Positions 45,573-57,847 of a stretch of 64,000 nucleotides of DNA are shown one piece after another (position 1 is the first letter of the stretch; each line of letters starts with the position of its first letter). The notes beneath the pieces were generated by a model, which was not told the DNA's origin, did no database searches, and was given only the letters and a program-made list of their open reading frames with translations. Position numbers and translations under genes: made by a program. The stretch is from the human T2T-CHM13v2.0 reference genome, Homo sapiens. The stretch is from the NCBI RefSeq assembly GCF_009914755.1, contig NC_060928.1, one strand, 5' to 3'.

Positions 45573-45863
45573 AATCTGTTTGGATGGCACTTTAATGATT
45601 CAAAAAATTGTTAGCTTTGACTAACATGGGTCAGCAGAAATAGAAAGGAATGAAGATAATTTAAAAATAAACACAGAGAGAAGGGAGAGACTGTGTCAAA
45701 GATGAATGTTGGGTTTCTGGCATACAAAGCGGAATCAATGCTCTTATCATTAAGCAAGATCAGAAGGGCTGAAAGTGAAATAATTATAAAGCAGAGACTA
45801 TGAATTTAGTTTTTTGCATGTGTATTTTGAAGTACTTTTGTAGCCTCCAAGTGTGTCTGTATA
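45573..45863 (+). repeat. Left arm of the ~290-bp inverted repeat
   Basis: Reverse complement of 57555-57847; manual alignment gives 6 substitutions and one 2-bp indel. Confidence 0.97.
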
Positions 45864-48800
45864 TTGTATATGTATACAGTATACACTTGTATATATGTAT
45901 ATATATGTGTATTTTGAAGTACTTTTGTAGCCTCCAAGTGTGTCTGTATATTGTATATGTATACAGTATACACTTGTATATATGTATATATATGTGTATT
46001 TTGAAGTACTTTTGTAGCCTCCAAGTGTGTCTGTATATTGTATATGTATACAGCATACACTTGTATATATGTATATATATGTGTATTTTGAAGTACTTTT
46101 GTAGCCTCCAAGTGTGTCTGTATATTGTATATGTATACAGCATACACTTGTATATATGTATATATATGTGTATTTTGAAGTACTTTTGTAGCCTCCAAGT
46201 GTGTCTGTATATTGTATATGTATACAGTATACACTTGTATATATGTATATATATGTGTATTTTGAAGTACTTTTGTAGCCTCCAAGTGTGTCTGTATATT
46301 GTATATGTATACAGTATACACTTGTATATATGTATATATATGTGTATTTTGAAGTACTTTTGTAGCCTCCAAGTGTGTCTGTATATTGTATATGTATACA
46401 GCATACACTTGTATATATGTATATATATGTGTATTTTGAAGTACTTTTGTAGCCTCCAAGTGTGTCTGTATATTGTATATGTATACAGCATACACTTGTA
46501 TATATGTATATATATGTGTATTTTGAAGTACTTTTGTAGCCTCCAAGTGTGTCTGTATATTGTATATGTATACAGTATACACTTGTATATATGTATATAT
46601 ATGTGTATTTTGAAGTACTTTTGTAGCCTCCAAGTGTGTCTGTATATTGTATATGTATACAGCATACACTTGTATATATGTATATATATGTGTATTTTGA
46701 AGTACTTTTGTAGCCTCCAAGTGTGTCTGTATATTGTATATGTATACAGTATACACTTGTATATATGTATATATATGTGTATTTTGAAGTACTTTTGTAG
46801 CCTCCAAGTGTGTCTGTATATTGTATATGTATACAGTATACACTTGTATATATGTATATATATGTGTATTTTGAAGTACTTTTGTAGCCTCCAAGTGTGT
46901 CTGTATATTGTATATGTATACAGTATACACTTGTATATATGTATATATATGTGTATTTTGAAGTACTTTTGTAGCCTCCAAGTGTGTCTGTATATTGTAT
47001 ATGTATACAGTATACACTTGTATATATGTATATATATGTGTATTTTGAAGTACTTTTGTAGCCTCCAAGTGTGTCTGTATATTGTATATGTATACAGCAT
47101 ACACTTGTATATATGTATATATATGTGTATTTTGAAGTACTTTTGTAGCCTCCAAGTGTGTCTGTATATTGTATATGTATACAGCATACACTTGTATATA
47201 TGTATATATATGTGTATTTTGAAGTACTTTTGTAGCCTCCAAGTGTGTCTGTATATTGTATATGTATACAGTATACACTTGTATATATGTATATATATGT
47301 GTATTTTGAAGTACTTTTGTAGCCTCCAAGTGTGTCTGTATATTGTATATGTATACAGTATACACTTGTATATATGTATATATATGTGTATTTTGAAGTA
47401 CTTTTGTAGCCTCCAAGTGTGTCTGTATATTGTATATGTATACAGCATACACTTGTATATATGTATATATATGTGTATTTTGAAGTACTTTTGTAGCCTC
47501 CAAGTGTGTCTGTATATTGTATATGTATACAGCATACACTTGTATATATGTATATATATGTGTATTTTGAAGTACTTTTGTAGCCTCCAAGTGTGTCTGT
47601 ATATTGTATATGTATACAGTATACACTTGTATATATGTATATATATGTGTATTTTGAAGTACTTTTGTAGCCTCCAAGTGTGTCTGTATATTGTATATGT
47701 ATACAGCATACACTTGTATATATGTATATATATGTGTATTTTGAAGTACTTTTGTAGCCTCCAAGTGTGTCTGTATATTGTATATGTATACAGTATACAC
47801 TTGTATATTTGTATATATATGTGTATTTTGAAGTACTTTTGTAGCCTCCAAGTGTGTCTGTATATTGTATATGTATACAGTATACACTTGTATATATGTA
47901 TATATATGTGTATTTTGAAGTACTTTTGTAGCCTCCAAGTGTGTCTGTATATTGTATATGTATACAGTATACACTTGTATATATGTATATATATGTGTAT
48001 TTTGAAGTACTTTTGTAGCCTCCAAGTGTGTCTGTAATTGTATATGTATACAGTATACACTTGTATATATGTATATATATGTGTATTTTGAAGTACTTTT
48101 GTAGCCTCCAAGTGTGTCTGTATATTGTATATGTATACAGTATACACTTGTATATATGTATATATATGTGTATTTTGAAGTACTTTTGTAGCCTCCAAGT
48201 GTGTCTGTATATTGTATATGTATACAGCATACACTTGTATATATGTATATATATGTGTATTTTGAAGTACTTTTGTAGCCTCCAAGTGTGTCTGTATATT
48301 GTATATGTATACAGTATACACTTGTATATATGTATATATATGTGTATTTTGAAGTACTTTTGTAGCCTCCAAGTGTGTCTGTATATTGTATATGTATACA
48401 GTATACACTTGTATATATGTATATATATGTGTATTTTGAAGTACTTTTGTAGCCTCCAAGTGTGTCTGTATATTGTATATGTATACAGTATACACTTGTA
48501 TATATGTATATATATGTGTATTTTGAAGTACTTTTGTAGCCTCCAAGTGTGTCTGTATATTGTATATGTATACAGTATACACTTGTATATATGTATATAT
48601 ATGTGTATTTTGAAGTACTTTTGTAGCCTCCAAGTGTGTCTGTATATTGTATATGTATACAGCATACACTTGTATATATGTATATATATGTGTATTTTGA
48701 AGTACTTTTGTAGCCTCCAAGTGTGTCTGTATATTGTATATGTATACAGTATACACTTGTATATATGTATATATATGTGTATTTTGAAGTACTTTTGTAG

Positions 48801-54800: not shown

Positions 54801-57558
54801 AGCCTCCAAGTGTGTCTGTATATTGTATATGTATACAGTATACACTTGTATATATGTATATATATGTGTATTTTGAAGTACTTTTGTAGCCTCCAAGTGT
54901 GTCTGTATATTGTATATGTATACAGCATACACTTGTATATATGTATATATATGTGTATTTTGAAGTACTTTTGTAGCCTCCAAGTGTGTCTGTATATTGT
55001 ATATGTATACAGTATACACTTGTATATATGTATATATATGTGTATTTTGAAGTACTTTTGTAGCCTCCAAGTGTGTCTGTATATTGTATATGTATACAGT
55101 ATACACTTGTATATATGTATATATATGTGTATTTTGAAGTACTTTTGTAGCCTCCAAGTGTGTCTGTATATTGTATATGTATACAGCATACACTTGTATA
55201 TATGTATATATATGTGTATTTTGAAGTACTTTTGTAGCCTCCAAGTGTGTCTGTATATTGTATATGTATACAGTATACACTTGTATATATGTATATATAT
55301 GTGTATTTTGAAGTACTTTTGTAGCCTCCAAGTGTGTCTGTATATTGTATATGTATACAGTATACACTTGTATATATGTATATATATGTGTATTTTGAAG
55401 TACTTTTGTAGCCTCCAAGTGTGTCTGTATATTGTATATGTATACAGCATACACTTGTATATATGTATATATATGTGTATTTTGAAGTACTTTTGTAGCC
55501 TCCAAGTGTGTCTGTATATTGTATATGTATACAGCATACACTTGTATATATGTATATTATATGTGTATTTTGAAGTACTTTTGTAGCCTCCAAGTGTGTC
55601 TGTATATTGTATATGTATACAGTATACACTTGTATATATGTATATATATGTGTATTTTGAAGTACTTTTGTAGCCTCCAAGTGTGTCTGTATATTGTATA
55701 TGTATACAGCATACACTTGTATATATGTATATATATGTGTATTTTGAAGTACTTTTGTAGCCTCCAAGTGTGTCTGTATATTGTATATGTATACAGTATA
55801 CACTTGTATATATGTATATATATGTGTATTTTGAAGTACTTTTGTAGCCTCCAAGTGTGTCTGTATATTGTATATGTATACAGTATACACTTGTATATAT
55901 GTATATATATGTGTATTTTGAAGTACTTTTGTAGCCTCCAAGTGTGTCTGTATATTGTATATGTATACAGCATACACTTGTATATATGTATATATATGTG
56001 TATTTTGAAGTACTTTTGTAGCCTCCAAGTGTGTCTGTATATTGTATATGTATACAGTATACACTTGTATATATGTATATATATGTGTATTTTGAAGTAC
56101 TTTTGTAGCCTCCAAGTGTGTCTGTATATTGTATATGTATACAGTATACACTTGTATATATGTATATATATGTGTATTTTGAAGTACTTTTGTAGCCTCC
56201 AAGTGTGTCCGTATATTGTATATGTATACAGTATACACTTGTATATATGTATATATATGTGTATTTTGAAGTACTTTTGTAGCCTCCAAGTGTGTCTGTA
56301 TATTGTATATGTATACAGTATACACTTGTATATATGTATATATATGTGTATTTTGAAGTACTTTTGTAGCCTCCAAGTGTGTCTGTATATTGTATATGTA
56401 TACAGTATACACTTGTATATATGTATATATATGTGTATTTTGAAGTACTTTTGTAGCCTCCAAGTGTGTCTGTATATTGTATATGTATACAGCATACACT
56501 TGTATATATGTATATATATGTGTATTTTGAAGTACTTTTGTAGCCTCCAAGTGTGTCTGTATATTGTATATGTATACAGTATACACTTGTATATATGTAT
56601 ATATATGTGTATTTTGAAGTACTTATGTAGTCTCCAAGTGTGTCTGTATATTGTATATGTATACAGTATACACTTGTATATATGTATATATATGTGTATT
56701 TTGAAGTACTTTTGTAGCCTCCAAGTGTGTCTGTATATTGTATATGTATACAGCATACACTTGTATATATGTATATATATGTGTATTTTGAAGTACTTTT
56801 GTAGCCTCCAAGTGTGTCTGTATATTGTATATGTATACAGCATACACTTGTATATATGTATATATATGTGTATTTTGAAGTACTTTTGTAGCCTCCAAGT
56901 GTGTCTGTATATTGTATATGTATACAGTATACACTTGTATATATGTATATATATGTGTATTTTGAAGTACTTTTGTAGCCTCCAAGTGTGTCTGTATATT
57001 GTATATGTATACAGCATACACTTGTATATATGTATATATATGTGTATTTTGAAGTACTTTTGTAGCCTCCAAGTGTGTCTGTATATTGTATATGTATACA
57101 GTATACACTTGTATATATGTATATATATGTGTATTTTGAAGTACTTTTGTAGCCTCCAAGTGTGTCTGTATATTGTATATGTATACAGCATACACTTGTA
57201 TATATGTATATATATGTGTATTTTGAAGTACTTTTGTAGCCTCCAAGTGTGTCTGTATATTGTATATGTATACAGCATACACTTGTATATATGTATATAT
57301 ATGTGTATTTTGAAGTACTTTTGTAGCCTCCAAGTGTGTCTGTATATTGTATATGTATACAGTATACACTTGTATATATGTATATATATGTGTATTTTGA
57401 AGTACTTTTGTAGCCTCCAAGTGTGTCTGTATATTGTATATGTATACAGTATACACTTGTATATATGTATATATATGTGTATTTTGAAGTACTTTTGTAG
57501 CCTCCAAGTGTGTCTGTATATTGTATATGTATACAGTATACACTTGTATATATGTATA
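45818..57558 (+). repeat. 87-bp minisatellite/VNTR array, 135 copies (~28% GC)
   Basis: Unit ATGTGTATTTTGAAGTACTTTTGTAGCCTCCAAGTGTGTCTGTATATTGTATATGTATACAG(T/C)ATACACTTGTATATATGTATATAT. The last unit starts at 57475 = 134x87 minus 1 net indel. Confidence 0.99.
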
Positions 57559-57847
57559 CAGATACCCTTGGAGGCTACCAAAGTACTTCAAAATACACAC
57601 GCAAAAAACTAAATTCATAGTCTCTGCTTTATAATTATTTCACTTTCAGCACTTCTGATCTTGCTTAATGATAAGAGCATTGATTCCGCTTTGTATGCCG
57701 GAAACCCAACATTCATCTTTGACACAGTCTCTCCCTTCTCTCTGTGTTTATTTTTAAATTATCTTCATTCCTTTCTATTTCTGCTGACCCATGTTAGTCA
57801 AAGCTAACAATTTGTTTTGAATCATTAAAGTGCCATCCAAACAGATT
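57555..57847 (+). repeat. Right arm of the ~290-bp inverted repeat; L2-like sequence
   Basis: Reverse complement of 45573-45863. 'cttggaggctaccaaagtacttcaaaatacacacgcaaaaaactaaattcat' and 'gccggaaacccaacattcatctttgacacagtctctccct' resemble the L2 3' region. Confidence 0.95.

What the first reader, a model, noticed from the sequence alone, without database searches (positions are those of the whole stretch)
45573..57847. 11.7-kb minisatellite enclosed by ~290-bp inverted repeats: a fold-back structure whose loop is a tandem array of its own apex
Seen: 45573-45863 is the reverse complement of 57555-57847 (6 substitutions and a 2-bp indel, ~97%). The first 46 bp of the 87-bp unit are the inner end of the left arm, so the array grew out of the inverted repeat itself. 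All units carry left-arm alleles at the arm-discriminating sites (TTTTGTAGC, AAGTGTGTC versus right-arm TTTGGTAGC, AAGGGTATC). Inference: a short-loop palindrome formed first, and its unstable centre then amplified into 135 copies, pushing the arms apart. The arms are ~2-3% diverged while the units are nearly identical, so expansion or homogenisation postdates the inversion. This looks like a minisatellite caught at birth with its parent structure preserved.
Basis: partly seen in the sequence, partly recalled or inferred. Interest (0 to 1): 0.85.

Follow-up and report, generated by a model that had tools for sequence, protein, structure and literature searches.

The report
Minisatellite grown from a palindrome's centre
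A 135-copy, 87-base tandem repeat in a gene desert on human chromosome 4 sits at the centre of a 0.6-kb inverted duplication and is built from that centre, so it is a tidy and probably harmless example of an unstable DNA palindrome turning into a minisatellite.

Summary
An 87-bp x 135.0 array lies at 45818-57558, 99% matching. The arms 45573-45863 and 57555-57847 are inverted copies with 6 substitutions and one 2-bp indel. They are the only two copies of that sequence in CHM13. All 135 whole-genome matches to the unit's unique part equal the unit count of this array.

- The unit spans the symmetry axis. It holds 46 nt of left arm, a 9-nt loop and a diverged copy of the right arm's first ~17 nt.
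- With the array collapsed, the locus is a 618-nt hairpin of -335 kcal/mol.
- Growth looks nested: a 25-bp duplication, then the 87-bp unit, then blocks at offsets of 21-24 units.

Palindrome first, then amplification of its apex, is the most economical history. That order, its age and "caught at birth" remain untested, because no ape or second human haplotype was available. The array already has two mixed major variants, so it is young but not newborn. It is not a transposon, a PATRR or a known RNA family. I found no paper on this locus. Interest is moderate.

The parts
45573..45863 (+). Left arm of the inverted repeat. The outer 245 nt (45573-45817) are unique sequence; the inner 46 nt (45818-45863) are also the start of array unit 1.
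   Evidence: alignment to the right arm; only two copies in the genome; 34% G+C.
45818..57558 (+). Tandem array: 87-bp unit, 135 copies, all in one orientation, 27.6% G+C. There are two major variants, T (82 units) and C (53 units) at unit position 63. Rare variants are T21A in units 55, 79 and 125, and T41C in units 99 and 120. Six unit types occur once (the truncated last unit not counted).
57555..57847 (-). Right arm of the inverted repeat. It keeps two CpGs that the left arm lacks (opposite 45718 and 45818).
57524..57570 (+). 25-bp quasi-duplication (1.9 copies, 91% match) across the boundary between array and right arm. Its first copy is present in every unit (unit positions about 50-72) and is a diverged copy of the right arm's inner end.
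   Evidence: Tandem Repeats Finder row; three-way alignment; this 20-mer is present in 132 of 134 anchored units as the T or C form.
57476..57599 (+). Residual short-spacer palindrome in the present allele: the last unit's 45 nt pair with the right arm's inner 45 nt (93%), 34 nt apart.
   Evidence: pair I6; -42.8 kcal/mol, z -12.9, 0 of 200 shuffles fold as well.
45848..45889 (+). Hairpin within the unit, shown for unit 1 (unit positions 31-72): a 16-bp imperfect stem with a 9-nt loop. The loop is the inferred original spacer of the palindrome.
   Evidence: -9.2 kcal/mol, z -2.86, 1 of 200 shuffles as good; same for the C variant.
45505..45534 (.). (TA)15 microsatellite 39 nt outside the left arm. 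It is part of the slippage-prone TA-rich setting and not part of the repeat itself.

Best explanation
This is a neutral structural feature with no function I can see. It is a minisatellite (VNTR) that grew from the apex of a roughly 0.62-kb near-spacerless palindrome.

Shown:
- Two unique-sequence arms are inverted copies and meet at a TA/TG-rich centre.
- The 87-bp unit is a contiguous piece across that centre: 46 nt of left arm, a 9-nt loop, about 17 nt homologous to the right arm's inner end, and about 15 nt of TA-rich junction.
- All 135 units point the same way.

Inferred history:
(1) About 300 bp of unique sequence next to a TA/TG-rich tract was duplicated in inverted orientation, probably by a template switch or fold-back at a short native palindrome. 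This gave arms separated by 9 nt or less.
(2) The apex then duplicated in steps of growing size. First came a 25-bp duplication of the loop plus the right arm's inner end. Next came an 87-bp duplication spanning the axis. Then came expansion to 135 copies by slippage or unequal sister-chromatid exchange, including block duplications at offsets of 21-24 units.
(3) The arms now lie 11.7 kb apart. By published spacer effects this should abolish hairpin and cruciform formation by the full arms, so the array in effect stabilised the palindrome. Only a 45-bp-stem, 34-nt-loop hairpin remains at the right edge of the array.

The causal step, that the hairpin provoked the duplications, is the least secure. 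The excess of arm differences next to the centre is compatible with error-prone repair synthesis at that step.
For: Structure.
Arms are unique in CHM13: 2 of 2 matches are the arms themselves. The same tool found old repeats at 67-84% identity in both flanks, so it is sensitive enough to have found a repeat family.
The unit is private to the locus: 135 forward and 0 reverse matches in the whole genome, equal to the unit count.
The collapsed one-apex form folds into a 618-nt near-perfect hairpin, -335.1 kcal/mol, with a 4-nt apex loop.
The unit hairpin and the 9-nt loop.
The copy of the right arm's inner end inside each unit, and the 25-bp quasi-duplication. That internal copy agrees with the right arm at the site of 45855 and with the left arm at the site of 45852, so each arm carries one derived change.
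Block duplication: both pairs of units sharing a rare unit type sit in identical contexts of 8 and 9 units at offsets of 24 and 21 units. Only 43 of 2628 pairs of the commonest type reach 8.
Literature, passages read:
- Palindromes with no or short spacers are unstable, and secondary rearrangements lengthen the spacer (PMC10766186).
- 320-bp inverted Alu repeats stall replication with a 0- or 12-bp spacer but not with 52 bp (as cited in PMC3300023, and PMC7999016).
Against: No outgroup or second haplotype was available, so the order and timing of events are untested.

The axis-spanning position of the unit is only weak evidence for a hairpin-driven cause. An 87-bp segment placed at random within 618 nt would include the axis about 16% of the time (my arithmetic), and the TA/TG-rich centre is slippage-prone anyway.

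The junction between units has no clean microhomology; about 10 nt or 3 nt are unexplained, depending on the parse.

The pattern of the two major variants shows no significant higher-order structure: the longest repeated block is 16 units, reached by 124 of 2000 shuffles and 187 of 2000 Markov simulations.

The T-to-C variant does not change the predicted unit hairpin energy (-9.2 kcal/mol in both), so selection on hairpin strength is not visible.

Dating is very loose. Two outer substitutions give roughly 1-29 million years for the arms, and six singleton unit types give roughly 0.4-2.2 million years for the units. Both use a mutation rate recalled from memory.
Confidence: 0.6

Rival explanations
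1. Common cause, not causation. The TA/TG-rich slippery tract independently produced both the inverted duplication and the tandem array. The palindrome played no part in starting or driving the array.
For: The centre is ordinary TA/TG-rich low-complexity sequence of a kind found elsewhere: weak matches of 43-51 bp at 87-91% on three other chromosomes, all in TA-rich tracts. (TA)15 and another AT-rich self-complementary stretch flank the locus. The chance that a random unit spans the axis is about 16% (my arithmetic).
Against: The unit runs 46 nt into non-repetitive arm sequence and includes the axis. Three nested duplications all sit at the apex. Published work shows that short-spacer palindromes of this arm length stall forks and break.
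Confidence: 0.25
2. Array seed first. Two or a few 87-bp units already existed when the left flank plus one unit-equivalent was copied in inverted orientation to the far side.
For: Nothing in the sequence excludes a template switch from the last to the first of a few units. The right arm's inner 46 nt differ from the unit consensus at 4 sites, as expected if the array went on evolving after the copy was made.
Against: The right arm joins unique outer-arm sequence directly to a single unit-equivalent. The switch would therefore have had to land on the first unit specifically. No inverted units exist: 0 reverse matches.
Confidence: 0.12
3. A foldback-type or MITE-type DNA transposon whose internal region expanded, as in Tetris of Drosophila virilis.
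For: Terminal inverted repeats enclosing tandem repeats is the architecture of such elements (PMC4079207; search listing and start of abstract only). The 6 nt abutting the arm ends match at 4 of 6 positions, read by eye.
Against: The arms occur nowhere else in the genome, although the tool detects old repeats at about 70% identity. NCBI's repeat-masking file lists no masked stretch in this interval (hub note). 4 of 6 matches is near chance. Arm identity of 97-98% is too high for human DNA transposons, which are ancient (recalled, no call).
Confidence: 0.04
4. Assembly artefact: the array length or the second arm was created by mis-assembly.
For: It could not be tested here, since no reads were available.
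Against: The array carries 11 unit types with point changes and 1-bp indels at fixed places, and it has unique flanks on both sides. At 11.7 kb it is within the length of single long reads (general knowledge). The arms differ at 7 places, so they are not a trivial duplication of one read.
Confidence: 0.03
5. A functional array of hairpin RNAs, such as a microRNA-like cluster of TA/TG-rich hairpins, or a regulatory element.
For: Each unit folds better than shuffles (z -2.86). There are sub-threshold Rfam matches to the TA/TG-rich families mir-297, mir-4536, mir-466, mir-1277 and mir-568.
Against: The best score is 27.7 bits against a gathering score of 90, which is typical of matches by composition alone. 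No gene lies within 100 kb (hub note). There is no evidence of transcription.
Confidence: 0.03

Closest known systems
Minisatellite birth by slipped-strand mispairing at non-contiguous repeats, and hairpin-associated tandem-repeat birth in vertebrate mitochondrial control regions (pause-melting misalignment, PMC3599147, abstract read; the nuclear slippage models of Haber & Louis and of Taylor & Breden are recalled, no call)
   Same: A first duplication of a segment able to form secondary structure, followed by gain of copies. The unit contains a hairpin.
   Different: Here the parent structure is a 0.6-kb nuclear palindrome still preserved on both sides, and the unit spans its axis. The junction shows no clean direct-repeat microhomology.
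Palindromic AT-rich repeats (PATRR11, PATRR22, PATRR17, PATRR8)
   Same: In collapsed form: several hundred bp, near-perfect palindrome, almost no spacer, AT-rich centre. PATRRs vary in size through changes at the centre (PMC4940405).
   Different: PATRRs are more than 90% AT and change by central deletion. These arms are 66% AT, and the centre was amplified rather than deleted. No translocation is known here.
Stabilising secondary rearrangement of palindromes (centre-break revision; spacer lengthening, PMC10766186; Cunningham et al. 2003 seen only in reference lists)
   Same: The outcome is the same: a dangerous short-spacer palindrome becomes a long-spacer inverted repeat.
   Different: The known routes are asymmetric deletions or new junctions. 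I found no described route by tandem amplification of the apex.
Foldback or MITE elements with internal tandem repeats that seed satellites (Tetris, PMC4079207)
   Same: Inverted terminal repeats enclose a tandem array related to them.
   Different: Single-copy locus, no sign of mobility, and a human genome rather than an insect one.
AT-rich minisatellite expansions at the rare fragile sites FRA10B and FRA16B (PMC9714581)
   Same: A kilobase-scale uninterrupted array of hairpin-capable AT-rich units. FRA10B is fragile above about 5 kb, and this array is 11.7 kb.
   Different: Their units are 33-42 bp and about 91% AT. This unit is 87 bp and 72% AT. I know of no rare fragile site mapped to this region.

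Membership tests
Minisatellite / VNTR | Head-to-tail tandem copies of a unit of about 10-100 bp | tested here: met
   87 bp x 135.0 copies, 99% match; 135 forward and 0 reverse copies.
Minisatellite / VNTR | Copy number varies among individuals | not testable with these tools
   Only one human haplotype (CHM13) is held. Scans of other collections found no copy.
Palindromic AT-rich repeat (PATRR) | Several hundred bp in length | tested here: met
   The collapsed form is 618 nt. Definition from PMC4940405.
Palindromic AT-rich repeat (PATRR) | More than 90% AT | tested here: not met
   Arms are 34.0% G+C and the unit is 27.6% G+C.
Palindromic AT-rich repeat (PATRR) | Nearly perfect palindrome without spacer | tested here: not met
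   The present spacer is 11.7 kb. A spacer of 9 nt or less is only inferred for the ancestor.
Foldback / MITE-type DNA transposon with internal repeats | Multiple dispersed copies sharing the terminal inverted repeats | tested here: not met
   The arm sequence has 2 matches in the genome, both at this locus. The sensitivity of the tool is shown.
Foldback / MITE-type DNA transposon with internal repeats | Target-site duplication abutting the inverted repeats | tested here: inconclusive
   The 6 nt outside the arms match at 4 of 6 positions, read by eye. This is near chance and fits no known superfamily length or motif (recalled).
AT-rich minisatellite rare fragile site (FRA10B / FRA16B type) | Uninterrupted array of several kb | tested here: met
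   11,741 bp. The threshold of more than 5 kb for FRA10B is from PMC9714581.
AT-rich minisatellite rare fragile site (FRA10B / FRA16B type) | About 91% AT, unit of 33-42 bp | tested here: not met
   72.4% AT, unit of 87 bp.
AT-rich minisatellite rare fragile site (FRA10B / FRA16B type) | Cytogenetic fragility induced by distamycin A or BrdU | not testable with these tools
   This needs cytogenetics.
Rfam microRNA families mir-297 / mir-466 / mir-4536 | Score at or above the family's gathering threshold | tested here: not met
   The best score is 27.7 bits against 90; the other matches are 19.6-27.4 bits against 60-100.

The most novel reading that the evidence does not exclude
Tandem amplification of the apex may be a general and so far undescribed way in which genomes defuse spacerless palindromes. 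The hairpin tip is duplicated repeatedly until the arms are too far apart to pair, and a new VNTR is born as a by-product. On this reading the chr4 locus is the first preserved example, and a share of human VNTRs should carry relic inverted arms that overlap their unit.
Probability: 0.2. Interest if true: 0.65.

Novelty: new variant of a known kind. Interest (0 to 1): 0.45.

Why it matters
Where minisatellites come from and what becomes of long palindromes are usually studied apart. For most VNTRs the parent sequence has been lost. Here both arms of the parent palindrome survive, the unit can be read as a contiguous piece across the axis, and successive duplication sizes (25 bp, 87 bp, about 2 kb) are still legible.

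If ape and human haplotypes show the predicted series (one arm, then a short-loop palindrome, then a variable array), the locus would be a clean natural record of the birth of a VNTR. It would also record a stabilising route for palindromes other than central deletion.

It also predicts two testable polymorphisms: copy number, and inversion of the array between the 291-bp arms. I expect no effect on any gene, since the nearest lies more than 100 kb away.

Tried and rejected
1. Higher-order repeat structure in the map of the two major variants: not significant. The longest repeated block is 16 units, reached by 124 of 2000 shuffles and 187 of 2000 first-order Markov simulations. One of the 135 units was missed by the anchor in that script. 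I make no higher-order-repeat claim. Only the rare-variant contexts support block duplication.
2. The idea that the C variant at unit position 63 weakens the unit hairpin: rejected, since both variants fold at -9.2 kcal/mol.
3. Known RNA family: only sub-threshold matches driven by composition.
4. Repeat-family origin of the arms: no further copy found.
5. Other copies of the unit: one search returned only TA-rich partial matches and did not even list the array itself, because common words are skipped. I therefore repeated the test as a pattern count.
6. The three loci with TA-rich partial matches (L003-L005) are generic TA/TG-rich tracts and do not share this architecture.
7. Independent copies in other collections, as possible human contamination: 0 matches in genome contigs and 0 in viral contigs.
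8. Literature on this locus or this class. Searches found no paper describing a VNTR at this place or a minisatellite derived from a palindrome apex.
9. Searches for CHM13 coordinates in supplements: PMC13308034 (2 files, 0 occurrences); PMC12058530 (the only file held is unreadable).
10. The main text of the T2T repeat preprint does not mention the locus, and its supplements were not seen.
11. Papers that would bear on comparison with primates or on palindrome revision were not held.
13. A genome-wide or sampled survey for the same architecture was not attempted. At most about 2 Mb could be fetched, too little to be informative.

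
Full report
**What is there**

Tandem Repeats Finder reports one large array at 45818-57558: period 87, 135.0 copies, 99% matches, score 23039. The only other tandem repeat in the window scoring 100 or more is an (ATAG)18 microsatellite.

Cutting the array at a fixed anchor gives 135 units:
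- 73 of the commonest type;
- 51 that differ only by T-to-C at unit position 63;
- 2 with T21A and 2 with T41C;
- six types that occur once (two with a 1-bp deletion, one with a 1-bp insertion, three with point changes);
- a truncated last unit of 84 bp.

45573-45863 aligns with the reverse complement of 57555-57847 with six substitutions and one 2-bp indel. A self-BLAST of the window with the array collapsed extends the inverted pair to 45573-45885 / 57528-57847 (E 2e-140). It is the only high-identity inverted pair; the other five are at 75-83%.

**Is it unique sequence?**

The outer 245 nt of the arm match only the two arms in the whole CHM13 assembly. The same tool, run on the flanks, picked up dozens of old interspersed repeats at 67-84% identity. 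A repeat-family origin of the arms would therefore probably have been seen.

A DNA search with the unit returned only weak TA-rich partial matches and skipped the array itself. I therefore counted a 31-mer from the unit's non-repetitive part. It has 135 forward matches, 0 reverse and 0 for the backwards control. The 100 places listed are all inside this array, and the total equals the number of units. The right arm is not counted because it differs from this 31-mer at three sites. No copy was found in the prokaryotic or viral contig collections.

**Anatomy of the unit**

The rest is also derived from the palindrome.

Folded alone, the unit pairs positions 31-46 with 56-72 around a 9-nt loop: -9.2 kcal/mol, z -2.86, 1 of 200 shuffles as good. 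Positions 56-72 are a diverged copy of the first 16-17 nt of the right arm. The two copies form the 25-bp, 1.9-copy quasi-repeat that Tandem Repeats Finder lists at 57524-57570 (alignments).

The unit is therefore a contiguous slice across the symmetry axis:
- 46 nt of left arm;
- the original loop of 9 nt or less;
- one copy of the right arm's inner end;
- the first 12 nt of the next 25-bp copy;
- three further bases.

When the array is collapsed to one apex in a script, the 618 nt fold into a near-perfect hairpin of -335.1 kcal/mol with a 4-nt apex loop. In the present allele only the last unit can pair locally with the right arm: a 45-nt stem at 93% with 34 nt between the arms, folding at -42.8 kcal/mol, z -12.9.

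**What the differences between the arms say**

The seven events are unevenly placed. Three lie in the outer 245 bp and four in the inner 46 bp (Fisher p = 0.013). The partition follows the natural boundary of the array, but I chose it after seeing the data.

At 45718 and 45818 the right arm keeps a CpG where the left has TpG or CpA. The left allele is therefore probably the derived one at both sites, by the usual decay of CpG (established knowledge).

The copy of the right arm's inner end inside every unit serves as a rough internal outgroup. It agrees with the right arm at the site of 45855 and with the left arm at the site of 45852, so each arm appears to have changed once there. This reading is tentative, because the sequence is low in complexity.

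The cluster of changes beside the axis is what error-prone repair synthesis near a rearrangement junction would leave. That idea is recalled from the literature on replicative rearrangements and was not tested here.

'All units carry left-arm alleles' is true. It follows automatically from the array being continuous with the left arm.

**How the array grew**

The two major variants are spread evenly (9-13 C units per 27 units) in short runs. The longest repeated block of states, 16 units, is not unusual: 124 of 2000 shuffles and 187 of 2000 Markov simulations reach it. One unit was missed by the anchor in that script. I therefore claim no higher-order repeat.

The rare variants do carry a signal. 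The two T21A-type units (55 and 79) share 8 identical neighbouring unit types. The two T41C units (99 and 120) share 9. Only 43 of 2628 pairs of the commonest type share 8 or more. T21A appears again in unit 125. This points to block duplications at offsets of about 21-24 units (about 2 kb).

The sequence of events I infer is a 25-bp duplication, then the 87-bp unit, then blocks. Each step creates longer direct repeats for the next.

**Order and age**

The right arm joins unique outer-arm sequence directly to one unit-equivalent, and no unit is inverted. The inverted copy was therefore made when there was one apex, or at most a few units.

For dating I used a recalled mutation rate of about 0.5e-9 per bp per year.
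- The two outer substitutions (one at a CpG) suggest about 8 million years, with Poisson limits of roughly 1-29.
- The six singleton unit types in 11.7 kb suggest that units last shared ancestry about 1 million years ago (0.4-2.2).

This weakly supports expansion or homogenisation after the inversion. Gene conversion between the arms would make the palindrome older than it looks. None of this replaces outgroups, which I could not reach.

**Likely consequence**

Passages read in three papers agree on the following (PMC3300023; PMC7999016; PMC10766186).
- Palindromes with no or short spacers are unstable.
- 320-bp inverted Alu repeats stall forks in primate cells with a 12-bp spacer but not with a 52-bp one.
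- Secondary rearrangements tend to lengthen the spacer.

A 2 x 300-bp palindrome with a spacer of 9 nt or less falls in the unstable class, and the present 11.7-kb spacing does not. The array thus acts as a stabilising spacer. Whether the hairpin caused the duplications is inference. An 87-bp segment placed at random in 618 nt would span the axis about 16% of the time, and the TA/TG-rich centre is slippery in itself. I therefore give the 'common cause' rival about one chance in four.

**Comparison with known kinds**

- It is a minisatellite by structure; variation in copy number is untested.
- It is not a PATRR. PATRRs are more than 90% AT and spacerless (PMC4940405), whereas this locus is 66-72% AT.
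- It is not a FRA10B/FRA16B-type array. Those have units of 33-42 bp at about 91% AT (PMC9714581). Its length does exceed the 5-kb threshold given for FRA10B.
- It is not a foldback transposon like Tetris (PMC4079207, listing and start of abstract only), because it is single-copy.
- Rfam gives only sub-threshold matches to TA/TG-rich microRNA families (27.7 bits against 90).
- The nearest mechanistic relatives are hairpin-associated birth of tandem repeats in mitochondrial control regions (PMC3599147, abstract) and stabilising revision of palindromes.

My ten searches and the supplement look-ups found no paper on this locus, and none on apex amplification as a fate of palindromes. Supplements of the T2T repeat and VNTR catalogue papers that I could not open may list the array.

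**Verdict**

The structural interpretation is supported and refined. The historical narrative is plausible but untested, and 'caught at birth' is overstated. No function is indicated.

It is a new variant of known kinds (VNTR; quasi-palindrome) and a good candidate for a short comparative study. Its interest is moderate unless it proves to be one of a class.

Noticed in passing
window 58016-58282: An AT-rich stretch about 170 nt beyond the right arm matches its own reverse complement at 70-71% identity over about 175 nt. It contains a 25-bp, 2.5-copy tandem repeat at 58045-58106 and lies in the stretch NCBI masks (57999-58271). It is a second self-complementary AT-rich tract next to the locus.
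   Followed up: partly
window 44358-44429 and 45505-45534: (ATAG)18 and (TA)15 microsatellites lie just left of the left arm, so the whole neighbourhood is rich in slippage-prone simple sequence.
   Followed up: no
window 20357-21487 and 40734-41867: A direct repeat of 1.13 kb at 96.7% identity. The second copy is the end of the 6-kb masked block at 35830-41880, so this is presumably two young LINE-1 3' ends (my reading, not tested).
   Followed up: no
window 45853-46172 (every unit): Sub-threshold Rfam matches of the unit hairpin to the TA/TG-rich microRNA families mir-297, mir-4536, mir-466, mir-1277 and mir-568 (19.7-27.7 bits against gathering scores of 75-90). These are most likely driven by composition.
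   Followed up: partly
L004 1033-2380 (G000 C2, about 109.011-109.013 Mb): An AT-rich region of about 1.3 kb is self-complementary over 1 kb (78.5%). It has several overlapping tandem periods (36, 39, 68, 77 bp) and lies between (CA)19 and (GT)20 tracts. It is a PATRR-like low-complexity region, picked up only through similarity to the TA-rich half of the unit.
   Followed up: partly
window 45718 and 45818 versus the right arm: Both CpG sites that distinguish the arms are intact in the right arm and decayed in the left. At 45818 the decayed base is also the first base of every array unit.
   Followed up: partly
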